Positions 5,413 through 9,433 of a stretch of DNA of 10,110 nt are shown in pieces. The DNA comes from a virus (taxonomy: Duplodnaviria > Heunggongvirae > Uroviricota > Caudoviricetes), in IMG/VR virus record IMGVR_UViG_3300010280_000146. One strand, written 5' to 3'. Under the pieces are notes generated by a model. That model did no database searches and was not told the origin of the DNA. It saw only the letters and a program-made list of their open reading frames with translations. A program made the position numbers and the translations under genes. Each line of letters starts with the position of its first letter. Position 1 is the first letter of the stretch.

Positions 5413-5997
5413 TTATTGTTTGTTTTTTTCGTTCTGGTTGATGACAAATTCAATGTAACTTTCGATCTTTGCCTTCTCTGTTTCAGGTAACAATGCGTAG
5501 CGCGAGCGGTCATAGTTGATAGTTGCAGGGTCATGCGGATGAATCAGTAGTTCATATCCGTGACGCCCGAATGCAGATGCAACATTCTCCAGGGTGGAAA
5601 TGGAAACGCTGACCTCATTGTTTAACAGGCGGCTTATTGTCACCTGGGCGACGCCGGATGCGCGGTGAAGTTTTCCCTGAGTTGAAAGGTCGCGGCTTTC
5701 ACTCATCCAGCGTTCCAGGTTGTGAGCTGCCAGCTGACCAATGTCGCTTGGGCCGACAGGCTGAAAACCTTCCTGAGAAAGCGAGCGATCGATATCAAGC
5801 CAGTTACGGGGTTTATTGGCGGCAGCTTCAATTTTTCGCGCAACCTGGTCGCCGATAACCTTCTTGCCAAGAGCCCAGCGGTTTACCAGATTTGCCTGAG
5901 TTCCAAGTTTTTCTGCCATCCGCGTCTGAACACCATTGAATTCACGGTCGATCAAGTCGTTGAGATTTTGCCTGCGGACGTCCTGGATACTTTTCAT
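5413..5997 (-). CDS. Tandem helix-turn-helix (two XRE-type HTH domains) transcriptional regulator; candidate prophage repressor
   Basis: 194 aa. First HTH around GVQTRMAEKLGTQANLVNRWALGKKVIGDQVARKIEAA, second around LHRASGVAQVTISRLLNNEVSVSISTLENVASAF. No LexA/S24 peptidase motifs seen. Placed like cI, divergent from a Cro-like gene, with its own terminator. Confidence 0.75.
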   Translation of the reverse strand: MKSIQDVRRQNLNDLIDREFNGVQTRMAEKLGTQANLVNRWALGKKVIGDQVARKIEAAANKPRNWLDIDRSLSQEGFQPVGPSDIGQLAAHNLERWMSESRDLSTQGKLHRASGVAQVTISRLLNNEVSVSISTLENVASAFGRHGYELLIHPHDPATINYDRSRYALLPETEKAKIESYIEFVINQNEKNKQ

Positions 5998-6090: not shown

Positions 6091-6127
6091 TTGATTTTTG
6101 TTACCTTATGGGTGAATATTTATTATC
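6091..6127 (+). promoter_or_regulatory. Putative pR-like promoter for the Cro-like gene (element assignment ambiguous)
   Basis: Candidate -35 TTGATT (6091-6096) or TTGTTA (6099-6104) with -10 TATTAT (6121-6126, 16-bp spacer from the latter); overlaps operator-like site 3. Confidence 0.3.
6101..6115. promoter_or_regulatory. Operator-like site TTACC TTATG GGTGA (divergent promoter region, site 3)
   Basis: Left half-site perfect, right half-site 4 of 5; overlaps the candidate rightward promoter. Confidence 0.35.
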
Positions 6128-6151: not shown

Positions 6152-6382
6152 ATGAGCGATAACGGACATTTCGATTTCAAAAAGCACTGGCTTGCACTTA
6201 CTCCGGATGAGCGTGAAGCCTTCGCACAGGAAGCCGGAACGACGAGTCACTATATCCAGACTCACTTAACAGGTAAGCGCAAAATGCCAGGTAAGGTATT
6301 GATGAATGGGCTTTTTAAAGCCTGTAAAACAAGACAATGGCTGCGCTCAAAAGCGGAACTGGCATACTTCTTCTACTCATGA
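6152..6382 (+). CDS. Cro/YdaS-like small HTH regulator
   Basis: 76 aa; LTPDEREAFAQEAGTTSHYIQTHLTGKRKMPGKVLMNGLFKACK fits Cro/CI-type and YdaS-like HTH proteins. Divergent from the repressor candidate and followed by a terminator. Confidence 0.7.
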   Translation: MSDNGHFDFKKHWLALTPDEREAFAQEAGTTSHYIQTHLTGKRKMPGKVLMNGLFKACKTRQWLRSKAELAYFFYS

Positions 6383-6403: not shown

Positions 6404-6427
6404 AGACCGCCATCCGGCGGTCTTTTC
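6404..6427 (+). terminator. Rho-independent terminator directly after the Cro-like gene
   Basis: Stem AGACCGCC (6404-6411) / GGCGGTCT (6416-6423), loop ATCC, then a short T-run (6424-6426). Confidence 0.55.
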
Positions 6428-6532: not shown

Positions 6533-6733
6533 ATGGAAATCATTACACGTATTGATGCCGCAAAGCGCGGACTTAAACGCTACTACACCGGAAAACCATG
6601 TAAGCACGGACATGACAGTGAACGCTGGGTTTACAACGGACACTGTGTTGAGTGCACCATGGAATCAAACCGTCGCATCAGGGCAGAGATTAAGCAGATC
6701 ATGATTAATTCCTCCCCACAACATTCAAGCTGA
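6533..6733 (+). CDS. Small Cys/His-containing (putative zinc-binding) protein at the cII-equivalent position
   Basis: Preferred internal ATG 6533 of track ORF 6470..6733. 66 aa, MEIITRIDAAKRGLKRYYTGKPCKHGHDSERWVYNGHCVECT..., with a C-x-H-x-H ... C-x-x-C arrangement. The track's upstream extension is hydrophobic and lies in promoter DNA. Confidence 0.55.
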   Translation: MEIITRIDAAKRGLKRYYTGKPCKHGHDSERWVYNGHCVECTMESNRRIRAEIKQIMINSSPQHSS

Positions 6734-6748
6734 TAGCGGAGATTAATC

Positions 6749-7564
6749 ATGAGCAGACATGCAACAGATTGGGCCTGGGAGACAGATCCAGGTAGCTCGT
6801 CATTAAAGCTCATACTGCTCTCGATGGCTGACAGAGCCGATGAATATAACCTCTGCTACCCCAGCATAGAACGCCTCGTTAAAGACACTTGTCTGAATAA
6901 AAAAACCGTGCAGGCCGGGCTTATATCGCTCATGAAAATGGGGCTTATTTCAGATACCGGAGAGAGAAAGGGAGCGACAAAAAGAGTGCGGGTTTTCTCT
7001 CTTAATATAACCAAAAACGGGAACATTAAAGGCAACCGGGAGGGGGGCAATGAACCCGAAAACGGTAATGTTACCGAAAACGGGAATATACCCAAAAACG
7101 GGATGTTGAATGATCCCAAAAACGGGATGTTGAATGATCCCAAAAACGGGATCCAGAACCAGTCATATAACCGGTCATTTAACCAAGAGAGGGAGAGCAG
7201 GACAAAAAACGGGGATTCTGTGTCTCATGACCCCGGCGCAAACAACGCCGTGATGAATAACTTTGTTCCTCCTGGTGGGCCAGGGCAATTAGGCAAATTT
7301 GTCATGCATGAACAATGGCAGCCATCAGATGACTTTCTTCGGAAAAGCTCATTGCAGGGAATCTACCTGGATAGTCTGCCAACGGCACAGGAACTTGCAG
7401 AGTTCAGAATTTACTGGATGGCTGAGGGTAAGGCATACCATCAGGCACAGTGGGAGCAGAAGCTGGCAAGGCGGCTGCAGATTAGCAGACAGAAGCAATC
7501 AACATTACCTGATAACAACGTTCCGCACTGGAACAGCCCTGAAGCGTGGGAGGATTTCTTGTGA
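6749..7564 (+). CDS. Replication initiator (O-like): N-terminal winged-HTH domain, Asn/Gly-rich repeat linker, C-terminal DnaT-like domain
   Basis: 271 aa. N-terminus MSRHATDWAWE...LKLILLSMADRADE...SIERLVKDTCLNKKTVQAGLISLMKMGLIS (HTH_36-like). C-terminus WQPSDDFLRKSSLQGIYLDSLPTAQELAEFRIYWMAEGKAYHQAQWEQKLARRLQISRQ closely parallels the E. coli DnaT C-terminal region (WQPDADF...[29 protein letters not shown], recalled). RBS GGAG 8 nt upstream. Confidence 0.85.
   Translation: MSRHATDWAWETDPGSSSLKLILLSMADRADEYNLCYPSIERLVKDTCLNKKTVQAGLISLMKMGLISDTGERKGATKRVRVFSLNITKNGNIKGNREGGNEPENGNVTENGNIPKNGMLNDPKNGMLNDPKNGIQNQSYNRSFNQERESRTKNGDSVSHDPGANNAVMNNFVPPGGPGQLGKFVMHEQWQPSDDFLRKSSLQGIYLDSLPTAQELAEFRIYWMAEGKAYHQAQWEQKLARRLQISRQKQSTLPDNNVPHWNSPEAWEDFL
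7011..7150 (+). repeat. Iteron-like direct repeats inside the O-like gene (candidate origin of replication)
   Basis: Six copies of the core C(C)nAAAACGG(G) at 7011, 7055, 7075, 7091, 7115 and 7139, including two exact 24-bp tandem units CCCAAAAACGGGATGTTGAATGAT (7091-7114, 7115-7138); they encode the repeated NGMLNDPK linker. Confidence 0.6.
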
Positions 7565-8346
7565 ACAACGTTTTTACCGCGATACAAAACCGTGACGGAG
7601 AAGCCCTTTCTCGCATGTCAGGTTATGAGCATCAGTACACCAACAATGACAACGTGGTGAACATGTCAGCAGAGAGGCTTGTTGATGCCCTTTTCAAACA
7701 GCTGAAACAACTGTTTCCGGCGGCAGTGGTAACCAACCTGAAGACGCCAGAGCAGGAAGTTGCTGCAAAACAGCAGTGGATTGCTGCGTTTGCCGAAGGG
7801 GGGATCCGAACCCGTGAACAGGTTTCTGCTGGTATGCGCCACGCCCGCGCCAGTGAATCTCCGTTCTGGCCGTCGCCAGGGCAATTCATCAAGTGGTGTA
7901 AAGACAGCAAGATGGTTCTTGGCGTCACCATTGACGATGTGATGGCGGAGTTTCACCGGTACAGCAAGGAAAAAAGTTTATATCCTGGTGGTCCCGAAAG
8001 ATTCCCGTGGCGGCATCCGGTTATGTACTGGGTCGTATGTGATACCCGCCGTGCAATGTATCAGCGCCAGCTTAGCGAGATTGAGGTTGAGAAACACGCG
8101 CGCAGGCTGCTCGATGATTGGGCGAAAAAGGTGGCTTCCGGACAGCAGATACCCGATCCGGTGATCAGCATACAGGCAAAGCCAGAGCCCATGAGTACAC
8201 CTCCGGACACAGGGAGAGACGTTTACCATCCACCAGGGCGAAGTTTCGGGTGCATGCCTAACGCCGCCACTCTGGGGGGAATAACACCGGCGCAGTGGCT
8301 GATGGAGGAATACAGGCGGGGAAAGGCGGCAGGATTTATCAAGTAA
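7561..8346 (+). CDS. Lambda P-like replication protein (DnaB helicase loader)
   Basis: GTG 7561 with GGGAGG 7 nt upstream, overlapping the O-like stop (GTGA). FPAAVVTNLKTPEQEVAAKQQWIAAFAEGGIRTREQVSAGMRHARASESPFWPSPGQFIKWC parallels lambda P (FPASLANRDQNEVNEIRRQWVLAFRENGITTMEQVNAGMRVARRQNRPFLPSPGQFVAWC, recalled). The track start at 7546 is an alternative. Confidence 0.75.
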   Translation: MNNVFTAIQNRDGEALSRMSGYEHQYTNNDNVVNMSAERLVDALFKQLKQLFPAAVVTNLKTPEQEVAAKQQWIAAFAEGGIRTREQVSAGMRHARASESPFWPSPGQFIKWCKDSKMVLGVTIDDVMAEFHRYSKEKSLYPGGPERFPWRHPVMYWVVCDTRRAMYQRQLSEIEVEKHARRLLDDWAKKVASGQQIPDPVISIQAKPEPMSTPPDTGRDVYHPPGRSFGCMPNAATLGGITPAQWLMEEYRRGKAAGFIK

Positions 8347-8808: not shown

Positions 8809-8848
8809 ATCGACGATCTTTTTAGTTATCAATGTAATCAATAAGTTA

Positions 8849-8857
8849 TGTGGATAA
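8849..8857 (-). promoter_or_regulatory. Consensus DnaA box (TTATCCACA on the minus strand) upstream of the 187-aa gene
   Basis: Plus-strand TGTGGATAA at 8849-8857 is the exact reverse complement of the DnaA box consensus; a single copy, so chance cannot be excluded. Confidence 0.25.
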
Positions 8858-8869
8858 GCGAGGGTAAAG

Positions 8870-9433
8870 ATGGAAAGTAATATCAAAGGGTTAGTTGCCG
8901 CCGGGCATGAGATGGCTTCGGAACTGAAAGCAGAATGTGGTGCCGTTGATATGCGCAGCGTGGCAAAGCTGATCAGCGATTTGGCAACGCAACTGGAAGT
9001 GCAACTGGTGCGTGCTAATGCGCTGGCCGAAGACCAGCAGAAAGCGATTGAGTCAATTAAGCAGGCTGATGCGGCTGTTAAGTTGGCACACGAGAAGTTT
9101 TCGGCGCTGGCGGCGGAGAATGCGGGGCTGAAGTCTGGCGCTATGGACGAAATCAAGGTTATCAACCGTGGAGGGCAGGCATATTGTGTAAAAGATGGCG
9201 TGCAAGTTAATCCCATGTATGCAAGAGGGTGGAATGACTATCGCGCAAAGTCTCTGCAATCAGACCCCCCAGCCACCGATGCTTTCCTGGCTGAAATTGA
9301 ACGCAAAGCAATCCGCAAGTTCATTAACAGCATTGAACACATCCTGCGTGACAAGTTGTCACCGTATGACACCGAAGAGATGCTTGAGACTATGCGTATT
9401 TTTCTGGAAGAACAGGGAGGCGAGCAAAAATGA
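8870..9433 (+). CDS. Hypothetical protein (187 aa) with a predicted coiled-coil N-terminal half
   Basis: RBS GAGGG 5 nt upstream of ATG 8870; Ala/Glu/Lys-rich heptad-like N-terminal region; no family recognised. Confidence 0.6.
   Translation: MESNIKGLVAAGHEMASELKAECGAVDMRSVAKLISDLATQLEVQLVRANALAEDQQKAIESIKQADAAVKLAHEKFSALAAENAGLKSGAMDEIKVINRGGQAYCVKDGVQVNPMYARGWNDYRAKSLQSDPPATDAFLAEIERKAIRKFINSIEHILRDKLSPYDTEEMLETMRIFLEEQGGEQK

What the first reader, a model, noticed from the sequence alone, without database searches (positions are those of the whole stretch)
7011..7150. Iteron array embedded in the O-like gene, likely the origin of replication
Six CCnAAAACGG(G) repeats at 17-44 bp spacing, including two exact 24-bp tandem units, lie in the linker-coding part of the initiator gene. 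This parallels lambda, where ori iterons sit inside O. The repeats also encode a repetitive Asn/Gly-rich peptide, so unit number could vary by slippage and change both origin strength and linker length.
Basis: partly seen in the sequence, partly recalled or inferred. Interest (0 to 1): 0.6.

Follow-up and report, generated by a model that had tools for sequence, protein, structure and literature searches.

The report
Prophage replication origin inside initiator gene
The six short repeats are real and are almost certainly the sites where a phiV10-type E. coli prophage's replication initiator binds its own gene to start DNA copying, as in phage lambda; this is an ordinary kind of element, but undescribed for this phage family and followed by a second conserved DNA element not seen in lambda.

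Summary
Observation confirmed. CCNAAAACGG occurs six times at 7011-7149, against 0.09 expected by chance, including an exact 24-bp tandem. The repeats lie in the interdomain linker of a 271-aa initiator (6749-7564: HTH_36 winged-helix N-domain plus DnaT-like C-domain). A lambda-P helicase loader gene follows it.

Interpretation supported by comparative evidence; nothing here tests binding or replication directly.
- About 30 diverged relatives with the same N-domain, from Enterobacteria to Desulfovibrio and Burkholderia, all carry a dyad-symmetric repeat array at the same position.
- The repeat arms change together with the recognition helix and wing of the N-domain.
- The array follows the N-domain whatever the C-domain is, and it is absent where only the C-domain is shared.
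- Selection acts on the DNA, not the peptide. The core is read in all three frames, spacings of 17, 22 or 25 nt occur, and synonymous positions are fixed in 18 of 19 genomes.
- Unit number varies among close relatives (5-8 sites; gene 792-852 bp).

New here: a second conserved element directly follows the array, 2-4 tandem GAACC-type ~12-mers (window 7156-7191), in 23 of 26 genes. It is a candidate unwinding or helicase-loading site.

Gaps: no lambda-like AT-rich tract, and no experiment.

Verdict: a new member of a known kind; moderate interest.

The parts
6749..7564 (+). Replication initiator gene (271 aa). N-terminal HTH_36 winged-helix domain (about 6749-7003), repeat-bearing linker (about 7004-7290), DnaT-like ssDNA-binding C-domain (about 7286-7543).
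   Evidence: ORF list and translation. Pfam HTH_36 1.8e-10 and DnaT 1.2e-15. PHROG 1032 at 9e-108. PDB DnaT chains at E about 7e-21 over aa 180-265.
7005..7022 (+). Iteron 1 (ATATAACCAAAAACGGGA; core 7011-7020). It is separated from iteron 2 by a 45-nt step that holds a decayed unit.
   Evidence: arm complementarity 3/6.
7050..7067 (+). Iteron 2 (ATGAACCCGAAAACGGTA; core 7056-7065).
   Evidence: arms 2/6 with the 6-nt spacer, but CCG-AAAA-CGG is itself symmetric.
7068..7085 (+). Iteron 3 (ATGTTACCGAAAACGGGA; core 7074-7083). It belongs to the 18-bp unit that is lost or gained in relatives.
7086..7103 (+). Iteron 4 (ATATACCCAAAAACGGGA; core 7092-7101).
7110..7127 (+). Iteron 5 (ATGATCCCAAAAACGGGA; core 7116-7125). 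The dyad GATCCC-AAAAAC-GGGATG has 5/6 complementary arm positions. It belongs to the exact 24-bp tandem.
7134..7151 (+). Iteron 6 (ATGATCCCAAAAACGGGA; core 7140-7149). It has a perfect 6+6 dyad, GATCCC-AAAAAC-GGGATC.
7156..7191 (+). Post-array tandem of ~12-nt GAACC-type units (GAACCAGTCATA / TAACCGGTCATT / TAACCAAGAGAG). It is a candidate DNA-unwinding or helicase-loading element. phiV10 has one extra unit.
   Evidence: TRF finds period 12, 2.4 copies at 7157-7185. A three-unit tandem sits directly after the array in 23 of 26 non-redundant relatives, with none elsewhere in those genes, and shuffles give a mean of 0.8. Codons are fixed: Gln CAG 25/25, Ser TCA 14/14, Glu GAA 11/11, against a mean top-codon share of 0.48 in the N-domain control. 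The second unit is read in another frame in Vibrio-type genes. Within the window alone the element is not statistically significant.
7179..7218 (+). Purine-rich tract on the coding strand (about 80% purine), overlapping the last 12-mer unit. It also contains the non-conserved pseudo-site at 7202-7213.
   Evidence: Composition profile; variability of the pseudo-site.
7561..8346 (+). Lambda-P-type helicase loader gene. The likely GTG start at 7561 overlaps the initiator's TGA stop (GTGA), as annotated in phiV10. The mechanical ORF list starts at 7546.
   Evidence: Pfam PF06992 at 1.5e-56; PHROG 109 'P-like helicase loader' at 2.4e-92; phiV10 annotation.
6098..6126 (+). pR-like promoter candidate upstream of the cro-like gene, small ORF, initiator and P operon. 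It would drive transcription through the origin. Context only.
   Evidence: Consensus scan, 9/12 match; the number of sites is not above shuffles. It lies between the divergent repressor gene (5413-5997, minus strand) and the cro-like gene (6152-6382).

Best explanation
The array is the initiator-binding part of the replication origin of a phiV10/epsilon15-type (Uetakevirus) temperate phage integrated in E. coli.

Shown: six dyad-symmetric sites (best form GATCCC-AAAAAC-GGGATC) lie in the linker-coding part of the initiator gene. Their DNA sequence, not the peptide they encode, is under selection. They co-occur and co-vary with the initiator's HTH_36 winged-helix N-domain across very distant phages.

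Inferred:
- Dimers of the N-domain bind each site, one winged helix per arm, as lambda O does at its four iterons, and build a multimeric nucleoprotein complex. The A5 tract in each site probably bends the DNA.
- This strains the adjacent segment (7156 to about 7215), which holds 2-3 tandem GAACC-type 12-mers and a purine-rich tract, and this segment opens.
- The DnaT-like C-domains, concentrated there by the array, coat the exposed single strand. E. coli DnaT's C-domain forms a filament on ssDNA that marks the helicase-loading site.
- Together with the lambda-P-type loader encoded next door, these domains place host DnaB on the DNA.

Because the origin is coding sequence, gain or loss of 18- or 24-bp units changes the number of sites and the linker length at the same time. 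That variation is seen in nature.
For: Non-random array: 6 matches against 0.09 expected; exact 24-bp tandem.

Host gene and partner: HTH_36 + DnaT domains, PHROG replication initiation protein at 9e-108, P loader downstream, and a lambdoid layout of repressor / cro-like gene / terminator / initiator / P.

Same position in relatives:
- PPompW, Edwardsiella GF-2 and Edno5, Vibrio Her, and Acinetobacter AP22 and Ab105-2phi all have arrays 270-460 nt into the gene, with cores of the type CC[C/G]AAAA[C/T][G/T]GG.
- Among 25 genome loci examined from Superficieibacter to Desulfovibrio, Sphingobium and Methylotenera, all but two truncated ones have a repeat array at that position.
- Three out-of-sample phages (Bcep176, EBPR podovirus 1, Pseudomonas phi2) do too.

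Module linkage:
- The array goes with the N-domain whether the C-domain is DnaT-like, lambda-O-like (GF-2) or something else.
- SPN1S and Tyrion share only the DnaT-like C-domain and have no such array.

Covariation:
- Arms are CCC/GGG, GTACC/GGTAC, GTCGGA/TCCGAC, GTGCCA/TGGCAC and GTCGG/CCGAC, while the A-rich spacer is kept.
- The last three arm types coincide with changes at the start of the recognition helix (KKT to RDT/RHT/RET) and a remodelled wing.

DNA-level selection:
- The core is read as PKNG/PENG/TEIG, as xQKR and as PKT[EVD] in the three frames.
- Spacings of 17, 22, 23, 25 and 34 nt occur in Bcep176, the EBPR podovirus and phi2.
- At sites defined by peptide alone, Pro is CCC 53/53 and Lys/Glu end in A 75/76.
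- Counted per genome, 18 of 19 are all-C (background 0.18) and 18 of 19 are all-A (background 0.55).
- Synonymous sites in the N-domain of the same genes are scrambled.

Copy-number variation: 5, 6, 7 and 8 sites; gene lengths 792, 798, 816, 834, 840 and 852 bp.

Literature:
- Lambda's four iterons plus an AT-rich tract lie in the middle of O, and Stx phages have six, which lengthens O by 13 aa (PMC7466680).
- P22 gene 18 and phage L gene 18 carry their own internal repeats, read as the origin (PMC8022706).
- DnaT's C-domain forms a filament on ssDNA that marks the helicase-loading site (PMC13377028).
- The domesticated chromosomal version of this same architecture, DopC/DopE, was reported to have no iteron-like sequences (PMC5509034).
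Against: - No experiment exists: binding, unwinding and origin activity are all inferred.
- The window has no lambda-like strongly AT-rich tract next to the array. The flanks are only mildly unstable (z about +1.2 at 7150 and +2.0 at 6990), and the least stable 40-mers of the window are intergenic.
- Only two of the six sites have good dyad arms (5/6 and 6/6); the rest score 2-4/6.
- Homology of the N-domain to lambda O could not be shown here (hhalign probability 3.9%). The parallel with lambda is therefore architectural.
- The helix/wing covariation rests on three diverged lineages and is confounded with phylogeny.
- The role proposed for the 12-mers and for the DnaT-like domain is a model, not a result.
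Confidence: 0.85

Rival explanations
1. The repeats are true initiator binding sites, but they act mainly in control and not as the place where replication starts. They could serve autoregulation, titration or handcuffing of the initiator, or exclusion of related superinfecting phages by a resident prophage. The start site would then lie elsewhere, for example in the AT-rich intergenic gap at 8809-8869, which carries a perfect DnaA box.
For: A perfect TTATCCACA box lies at 8849-8857 (minus strand), inside one of the five least stable 40-mers of the window. The array flank is not strongly AT-rich. [quoted passage not shown]
Against: In every characterised lambdoid system the intragenic iterons are the origin (PMC7466680, PMC8022706). 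A conserved second element sits directly after the array in 23 of 26 relatives, as expected for an unwinding site next to initiator sites. The DnaA-box gap was not examined in relatives, and one perfect box in 10 kb has roughly an 8% chance (own estimate, 2 x 10,110 / 4^9).
Confidence: 0.07
2. The repeats are only a slippage-prone low-complexity region encoding a flexible Asn/Gly-rich linker. The DNA sequence itself has no function.
For: All spacings in the window are multiples of three, and the peptide is repetitive (PKNG/PENG). Units within one array are recent duplicates, so identical codons within a genome prove little.
Against: The same DNA core is read in three frames, giving unrelated peptides. 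In Bcep176, the EBPR podovirus and phi2, spacings are 17, 22, 25 or 34 nt. The residue encoded at the variable core position is N, I, F or Y, while the DNA keeps its dyad. Across 19 independent genomes the synonymous positions are fixed, against backgrounds of 18% and 55%. Each site has dyad symmetry, which means nothing for a peptide. The domesticated DopC reportedly lacks such repeats (PMC5509034).
Confidence: 0.04
3. The sites are bound by a different protein, not the initiator. Candidates are the small Cys/His-rich protein encoded just upstream (6533-6733) or a host factor.
For: The upstream 66-aa ORF is conserved in phiV10-type phages (PHROG 1081, 1.8e-42) and has a weak hit to the endonuclease VII family (phrog_1035, 2.4e-4).
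Against: The array follows the HTH_36 N-domain into phages that lack that small gene: GF-2 has a CII-like gene there, and AP22, Ab105-2phi and Vibrio Her have other neighbours. The arms co-vary with the N-domain's helix and wing. A host factor would not explain different arms in phages of related hosts.
Confidence: 0.03

Closest known systems
Phage lambda ori (four iterons plus AT-rich tract inside gene O, with P downstream)
   Same: Direct repeats with internal dyad symmetry and an A-rich centre lie in the middle of the initiator gene, between the DNA-binding N-domain and the C-domain. Lambda's are ATCCCTC-AAAAC-GAGGGA; here GATCCC-AAAAAC-GGGATC. Site spacing is about two helical turns (lambda 20-24 nt, here 18-24 nt). 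A P-type loader gene follows with an overlapping stop/start, and the operon lies downstream of a cro-like gene (PMC7466680).
   Different: The N-domain is Pfam HTH_36, not Phage_rep_O, and homology to lambda O was not detectable here. The C-domain is DnaT-like, not the lambda-O C-domain. There are six sites, not four, and the half-sites are 2 bp closer together. There is no strong AT-rich tract or 28-bp palindrome; tandem GAACC 12-mers follow the array in their place.
Stx phages 933W and P27 (six iterons; O protein 13 aa longer)
   Same: Extra iterons inside the initiator gene lengthen the protein, so origin and linker change together (PMC7466680). The same coupling is seen here among relatives with 5-8 sites.
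   Different: Those are true lambda-O family proteins with lambda-type iterons. There, binding and plasmid replication were tested experimentally; here nothing has been tested.
P22 gene 18 and phage L gene 18 origins
   Same: Distantly related initiators each carry their own repeats within their coding region, and these are read as the origin from sequence alone. Phage L has six imprecise 11-bp repeats (PMC8022706).
   Different: The repeat sequences and the partner differ (a DnaB-type helicase gp12, not a P loader). No post-array 12-mer element was mentioned in the passages read.
DopC/DopE (Brezellec et al. 2017): HTH_36 + DnaT C-motif protein paired with a lambda-P-like protein
   Same: The two-gene architecture is identical: an HTH_36 N-domain, a DnaT-like C-domain, and a PF06992 partner immediately downstream.
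   Different: DopCE is a chromosomal, vertically inherited pair in Cellvibrionales and Oceanospirillales, proposed to act as a helicase matchmaker. The authors found no iteron-like sequences in dopC (PMC5509034). The window's pair is phage-borne and has the array.
Unwinding elements with tandem 13-mers in oriC and iteron plasmids (RK2 oriV)
   Same: Initiator sites are flanked by a few tandem 12-13-nt repeats. In RK2 all four 13-mers are needed for the Rep-ssDNA complex (PMC4980987). Here 2-4 tandem units of about 12 nt follow the iterons.
   Different: Those elements are AT-rich and non-coding. These are only about 55-60% AT, lie in coding sequence, and start with GAACC. No unwinding has been shown.
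E. coli DnaT (replication-restart primosome)
   Same: The C-domain matches DnaT residues 85-170 at E about 7e-21. That domain forms a filament on ssDNA and marks the helicase-loading site (PMC13377028).
   Different: DnaT is brought to forks by PriA and PriB in a structure-specific way and has its own N-domain. Here the domain is fused to a sequence-specific winged helix and paired with a P-type loader.

Membership tests
Lambda-type phage origin (iterons inside the initiator gene) | Four or more direct repeats of about 11-20 bp inside the initiator's coding region, between the parts encoding the N- and C-domains | tested here: met
   Six sites at 7005-7151, encoding aa ~85-136, between HTH_36 (aa 18-67) and DnaT (aa 184-252).
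Lambda-type phage origin (iterons inside the initiator gene) | Each repeat has internal dyad symmetry, as expected for binding by an initiator dimer | tested here: met
   Arm complementarity is 6/6 and 5/6 for sites 6 and 5, and 2-4/6 for the others. Relatives show perfect dyads such as ACCCAAATTTGGGT, GTACCAATATTGGTAC and GTCGGA-AAAA-TCCGAC.
Lambda-type phage origin (iterons inside the initiator gene) | A strongly AT-rich tract directly next to the repeats | tested here: not met
   The 40-mer stability z-score is only +1.2 (7150) and +2.0 (6990), and AT content is 0.5-0.6 downstream. The least stable segments of the window are intergenic. Tandem GAACC 12-mers and a purine-rich tract occupy that position.
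Lambda-type phage origin (iterons inside the initiator gene) | Helicase loader or helicase gene immediately downstream of the initiator gene | tested here: met
   PF06992 Phage_lambda_P at 1.5e-56; PHROG 109 at 2.4e-92; GTGA overlap at 7561-7564.
Lambda-type phage origin (iterons inside the initiator gene) | Repeats differ between phages in step with the initiator's DNA-binding domain | tested here: met
   The arms change with N-domain divergence and with the helix and wing motifs. The array is absent where only the C-domain is shared.
Lambda-type phage origin (iterons inside the initiator gene) | The initiator binds the repeats, and the segment supports initiator-dependent replication | not testable with these tools
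   Needs EMSA or footprinting and an ori-plasmid assay.
Lambda O protein family (Pfam PF04492 Phage_rep_O) | N-domain matches PF04492 above its threshold | tested here: not met
   Only HTH_36 and DnaT are found at E <= 0.01. Lambda O as a positive control gives PF04492 at 5.7e-36. hhalign of the N-domain profile against lambda O gives probability 3.9%.
Lambda O protein family (Pfam PF04492 Phage_rep_O) | Lambda-O-type C-terminal domain | tested here: not met
   The C-domain is DnaT-like. A lambda-O-type C-terminus is seen in the Edwardsiella GF-2 relative, not here.
DopC/DopE-type pair (HTH_36 + DnaT C-motif protein with a lambda-P-like partner) | HTH_36 N-domain, DnaT-like C-domain and a PF06992 gene downstream | tested here: met
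   family definition from PMC5509034.
DopC/DopE-type pair (HTH_36 + DnaT C-motif protein with a lambda-P-like partner) | Resident chromosomal gene pair without iteron-like repeats | tested here: not met
   The window is a prophage with integrase, RecT/exonuclease and repressor genes, about 97-99% identical to phiV10 in this gene. It carries the array. It is therefore the phage-borne counterpart, not a DopCE member.
Iteron-plasmid origin (Rep protein, iterons, 13-mer unwinding element, DnaA boxes) | Tandem 13-mer repeats in an AT-rich unwinding element next to the iterons | tested here: inconclusive
   Tandem units of about 12 nt are present and conserved, but they are not AT-rich, and unwinding was not tested.
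Iteron-plasmid origin (Rep protein, iterons, 13-mer unwinding element, DnaA boxes) | DnaA boxes beside the iterons | tested here: not met
   The only TTWTNCACA matches in the window are at 8849 and 9185, more than 1.6 kb away.

The most novel reading that the evidence does not exclude
Initiators with this HTH_36 N-domain define a widespread, uncharacterised origin family built from two DNA modules embedded in the initiator gene. They occur in Gammaproteobacteria, Burkholderia, Desulfovibrio, Sphingobium and Methylotenera, in both phages and prophages.

The first module is a set of specificity iterons: variable dyad arms around a conserved A-rich spacer. The second is an almost universal tandem of GAACC-type ~12-mers, which would be a sequence-specific unwinding or helicase-loading element.

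In members with a DnaT-like C-domain, such as this one, the iteron-tethered C-domains would form a DnaT-type filament on that single strand and hand it to P-DnaB. Such a phage initiator would combine origin recognition with replication-restart-style helicase loading. The domesticated DopC/DopE pair would be the same machine stripped of its origin.
Probability: 0.3. Interest if true: 0.65.

Novelty: new member of a known kind. Interest (0 to 1): 0.4.

Why it matters
It locates the probable replication origin of phiV10/epsilon15-type prophages. The initiator gene is found in 424 of 5,426 complete E. coli genomes, and phiV10 is used as an O157:H7 typing and reporter phage (own knowledge). I found no published description of this origin.

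Practical uses:
- It gives a defined segment of about 230 bp for building phage-derived replicons.
- It offers a natural allelic series (5-8 sites) for asking how the number of sites and the linker length affect replication.
- It gives a clear negative control in the domesticated DopC genes.

More broadly, the family-wide comparison shows how a DNA element can be maintained inside a coding sequence across all three reading frames. It also points to a conserved 12-mer tandem that could be the missing unwinding or loading element. Finally, it links a sequence-specific phage initiator to the recently solved DnaT filament that marks helicase-loading sites.

Tried and rejected
- Seventh site at 7202-7213: rejected. 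The base at 7208 varies freely in close relatives, and its Thr codon is ACA, not ACC.
- Lambda-like AT-rich unwinding tract: searched with AT, purine and nearest-neighbour stability profiles, and not found.
- Homology of the N-domain to lambda O: hhalign gave probability 3.9%, so it is not claimed. Brezellec et al. labelled the domain by HHpred, but I could not reproduce a link.
- Reverse-strand ORF 6856-7143 (95 aa) across the array: no family hit, so treated as spurious.
- Minus-strand terminator-like hairpins at 7142-7123 and 7118-7099: these are by-products of adjacent iteron arms plus the A-tract, and their number is not above shuffles.
- In-window significance of AACCRGTCAT: not significant on its own (2 matches against 1.25 expected). 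Its support is purely comparative.
- Genome scan with a six-sequence N-domain alignment failed for lack of a conserved stretch. It was redone with three sequences.
I ran no further search on it, because Pfam already gives the fold class.
- Literature searches for phiV10 or epsilon15 iterons, and for the motif as a literal string, found nothing relevant.
- Codon counts pooled over sites are inflated by within-array duplication, so I recounted per genome.
Full report
**1. The observation**

The pattern CCNAAAACGG occurs six times in the 10,110-bp window. All six are on the + strand, at 7011, 7056, 7074, 7092, 7116 and 7140. Dinucleotide-preserving shuffles give 0.09 on average, and none of 200 reaches six. 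In register the units are about 18 nt long (AATRWWMCCVAAAACGGKA), with start-to-start steps of 45, 18, 18, 24 and 24 nt. Tandem Repeats Finder reports an 18-nt array at 7054-7103 and a 24-nt array at 7091-7152 with 2.6 copies and 100% matches. A looser search (CCCAAAAACGGG, up to 2 mismatches) adds only 7202-7213. That copy is not conserved and breaks the family codon rule, so I exclude it.

**2. The host gene and its setting**

The array lies in ORF 6749-7564 (271 aa).
- Pfam finds an HTH_36 helix-turn-helix domain at residues 18-67 and a DnaT DNA-binding domain at 184-252.
- PHROGs gives family 1032, 'replication initiation protein', at 9e-108, with weaker hits to 'O-like' families.
- The C-domain matches solved E. 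coli DnaT chains at E about 7e-21 over residues 180-265.
- The array encodes residues ~85-136, which is the interdomain linker.

The next gene is a lambda-P helicase loader (PF06992, 1.5e-56; PHROG 109). Its likely GTG start at 7561 overlaps the initiator's stop codon.

The window as a whole is a lambdoid early region. It contains an integrase, a methyltransferase, RecT and exonuclease genes, a divergent repressor (5413-5997) and cro-like gene (6152-6382), a terminator-like hairpin at 6404-6423, a small ORF, the initiator, P, and a DUF1064 protein.

The initiator gene is 97-99% identical to that of phage phiV10 and its relatives in the genus Uetakevirus. It is present in 424 of 5,426 complete E. 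coli genomes.

**3. Is it a DNA element or only a repetitive peptide?**

This is the central question. All spacings in the window are multiples of three, and the peptide is repetitive (PKNG/PENG). Four independent lines point to the DNA.

(a) *Position and linkage.*
- Every relative that shares the N-domain at 35-57% identity has its own array 270-460 nt into the gene. These are E. coli PPompW, Edwardsiella GF-2 and Edno5, Vibrio Her, and Acinetobacter AP22 and Ab105-2phi.
- I examined 25 of the 27 loci found in species-representative genomes. All but two truncated ones have a repeat array at that position. They range from Superficieibacter, Providencia, Vibrio and Pseudoalteromonas to Desulfovibrio, Sphingobium, a Zoogloeaceae MAG and Methylotenera.
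- The array goes with the N-domain whatever the C-terminus is: DnaT-like here and in PPompW, lambda-O-like in GF-2, and others in Vibrio and Acinetobacter phages.
- SPN1S and Tyrion share only the DnaT-like C-domain and have no such array.
- GF-2 is in effect a natural domain swap. It has this N-domain and array, then lambda's ori palindrome and lambda-O C-domain.

(b) *Reading frame.*
- The same core CCCAAAAACGG is read as PKNG/PENG/TEIG, as xQKR and as PKT[E/V/D] in the three frames, sometimes within one gene.
- In Burkholderia Bcep176, EBPR podovirus 1 and Pseudomonas phi2 the sites are spaced 17, 22, 23, 25 or 34 nt, so successive sites fall in different frames.

(c) *Synonymous sites.*
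- I defined sites by peptide alone ([PTS][KE]xG within the linker). Pro is CCC 53/53, Thr is ACC 18/19, Lys/Glu end in A 75/76, and Asn is AAC 47/49.
- Units within one array are recent duplicates, so I recounted per genome. In 18 of 19 genomes every such codon ends in C, against an 18% background in the same genes. In 18 of 19 every Lys/Glu codon ends in A, against 55%. The only exception in the window is the pseudo-site at 7202.
- As a control, 35 near-invariant amino-acid columns of the N-domain in the same genes have a mean top-codon share of 0.48. Their Ser and Leu columns use four to six codons.

(d) *Dyad symmetry and covariation.*
- The sites are inverted repeats around an A-rich centre: GATCCC-AAAAAC-GGGATC in the window, with arms matching 6/6 and 5/6 in the two best sites and 2-4/6 in the rest.
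- Across the family the arms change while the A-rich spacer stays. Examples are ATCCCAA-AA-TTGGGAT (GF-2), GTACC-GAAATT-GGTAC (Ab105-2phi), GTACCAATATTGGTAC (Acinetobacter), GTCGGA-AAAA-TCCGAC (Sphingobium), GTGCCA-AAAG-TGGCAC (Zoogloeaceae) and GTCGG-TAAATG-CCGAC (Methylotenera).
- All genes with CC(C)...GG(G) arms keep 'L-[N/D]-x-K-T' at the start of the predicted recognition helix and the wing motif 'DTG[E/K/R][R/K]xG'. The three with the other arms have RDT, RHT or RET there and a remodelled wing. This is the expected direction, but it rests on few lineages and is confounded with phylogeny.
- The residue encoded at the variable core position is N, I, F or Y, which are chemically unrelated, while the DNA keeps or improves its palindrome.

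**4. Copy-number variation**

Among close relatives the gene is 792, 798, 816, 828, 834, 840 or 852 bp long. The differences are whole 18-bp units (GGTAATGTTACCGAAAAC) or whole 24-bp units (GGGATGTTGAATGATCCCAAAAAC), giving 5, 6, 7 or 8 sites. phiV10's extra 12 bp is a third copy of the downstream 12-mer.

In 80 IMG/VR loci, 70 have six sites, four have seven or eight, and six have four or five matches to the motif. Only five of the 80 genes differ in length from 816 bp, and all five are longer. That sample is biased toward the best matches. Its effect on origin strength remains untested.

**5.

Directly after the last iteron come tandem units of about 12 nt: GAACCAGTCATA / TAACCGGTCATT / TAACCAAGAGAG (7156-7191; TRF period 12). 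A coding-strand purine-rich tract follows (about 80% purine, 7179-7218).

Within the window alone this is not significant. Comparatively it is striking.
- 23 of 26 non-redundant genes have a three-unit GAAYM tandem with a 9-13-nt period starting right after the array. There are none elsewhere in those genes. Shuffles give 0.8 genes on average, with a maximum of 4.
- The element is present even where the iterons are quite different. In Pseudomonas phi2 the iteron is ACCCCCGCAGGAAATGC and is followed by GAACCGTAATA GAACCTACAAGG GAACCGTCAGGA GAACCGTCACC.
- It is also under DNA-level constraint. In the first unit Gln is CAG 25/25, Ser is TCA 14/14 and Glu is GAA 11/11. The second copy lies 12 nt away in E. 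coli-type genes and 13 nt away in Vibrio-type genes, so it encodes YNRS in one and EPVI in the other.

Its function is unknown. My best guess is an unwinding or helicase-loading element, based on its position and repeat size. The analogy is to the tandem 13-mers beside initiator sites in oriC and in RK2 oriV, where all four 13-mers are needed for the Rep-ssDNA complex (PMC4980987).

**6. How it most likely works**

*Shown:* the anatomy, the DNA-level constraint, and the linkage to the N-domain.

*Inferred:*
- Dimers of the winged-helix N-domain bind the six sites and form a multimeric complex comparable to lambda's O-some.
- The adjacent 12-mer and purine-rich segment opens.
- The DnaT-like C-domains, held at high local concentration by the array, bind the exposed strand. 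[quoted passage not shown]
- The P-type loader then delivers DnaB.
- Transcription from the pR-like promoter would pass through the origin as in lambda. The promoter call is weak.

*What argues against a simple lambda copy:*
- There is no strongly AT-rich tract. The 40-mer stability z-score is only +1.2 to +2.0 at the flanks, and the least stable segments of the window are intergenic.
- The N-domain is not in lambda O's Pfam family, and its homology to lambda O is undetectable here.

**7. Comparison with what is known**

The kind of element is well known.
- Lambda has four iterons plus an AT-rich tract in the middle of O.
- Stx phages have six iterons, which lengthens O by 13 aa (PMC7466680).
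- P22 gene 18 and phage L gene 18 have their own internal repeats, which are read as origins from sequence alone (PMC8022706).

The protein architecture has also been described. Brezellec et al. found HTH_36 + DnaT C-motif proteins (DopC) next to lambda-P-like proteins (DopE) as a domesticated chromosomal pair. They explicitly found no iteron-like sequences in dopC (PMC5509034). That fits the view that the repeats serve an origin and are not a structural need of the linker.

I found no paper that describes the phiV10/epsilon15 origin, this iteron motif or the GAACC tandem. The searchable library lacks most subscription journals, including the original phiV10 and epsilon15 genome papers, so prior mention cannot be excluded.

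**8. Verdict**

- It is a new member of a known kind. A specialist would not be surprised by iterons inside an O-like gene.
- Moderate extra interest comes from three things: the family-wide conservation of the motif across very distant hosts, the second conserved element, and the fusion of an iteron-binding domain to a DnaT-type ssDNA-filament domain. Together these make a specific loading mechanism testable.

Noticed in passing
window 8849-8857 (minus strand), in the intergenic gap 8809-8869: A perfect DnaA-box consensus TTATCCACA sits inside one of the five least stable 40-mers of the window (8818-8857), between the DUF1064/resolvase-like gene and ORF 8870-9433. About 0.08 perfect boxes are expected per 10 kb. 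It could be a regulated promoter, a secondary origin-like site, or chance.
   Followed up: no
L090 (Edwardsiella phage GF-2) 1201-2043, especially gene nt 360-450: GF-2's initiator is a mosaic. It has this window's type of N-domain, iterons and GAAYC units, then lambda's ori palindrome (TCCGAGAATTCTGACGAATCCTCAGAC against lambda GTCAGAGAATTCTGGCGAATCCTCTGAC) and a lambda-O-type C-domain. The recombination joint therefore lies inside the origin.
   Followed up: partly
L092 (Vibrio phage P2) 1201-1701 compared with L093 (Vibrio phage Her) 1201-2169: P2 is identical to Her up to the fourth iteron (gene nt ~455). It then diverges and stops, losing the last iteron, the 12-mer tandem and the whole C-domain (166 against 322 aa). 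The 46-kb phages P2 and H8 may carry a truncated initiator, with the breakpoint inside the array.
   Followed up: no
L002 (phiV10) 1501-2328; window 7157-7185: The 12-nt unit CAGTCATATAAC is itself copy-number variable. phiV10 has three AACCAGTCAT copies where the window and 78 of 80 IMG/VR relatives have two.
   Followed up: partly
window 7021-7055: The 45-nt step between iterons 1 and 2 contains GGCAACCGGGAGGGGGGCAAT, which looks like a decayed unit (ACCG-GGAG-GGG). In Superficieibacter (L098, 87% N-domain identity) the four sites are contiguous at 18, 24 and 24 nt with no such gap.
   Followed up: partly
window 7099-7142, minus strand: Two terminator-like hairpins (TGGGATCATTCAACATCCCG followed by a T-run) are formed by the right arm of one iteron, the left arm of the next, and the A-tract. 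They would face antisense transcription. They are probably a by-product, and their number is not above shuffles.
   Followed up: no
window 6533-6733 (+): A small conserved ORF lies just upstream of the initiator (66 aa from the ATG at 6533; phiV10 p42; PHROG 1081, unknown function). It has a Cys/His pattern (C-x-H-G-H ... C-x-x-C) and a weak hit to the endonuclease VII family. It may be a zinc-binding DNA-binding protein.
   Followed up: no
Records PP488543.1 (phage BP9, 138 kb, Vequintavirus; L003) and PP350014.1 (PH444, 115 kb): A phiV10-type initiator and P module (96-98% identical) appears near the end of a 138-kb Vequintavirus record and in a 115-kb unannotated record. This suggests assembly chimeras or prophage contamination in those entries.
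   Followed up: no
L112 (Granulosicoccaceae MAG) 1501-1950: The homolog ends at 149 aa with a stop codon inside the post-array GAACC units. It may be a decaying copy, or a frameshift at the repeats.
   Followed up: no
NZ_CP148426.1 (hit H29), matched length 815 bp: One E. coli genome has a 1-nt length difference in this gene. It may be a frameshifted allele or a sequencing error in the repeat region.
   Followed up: no
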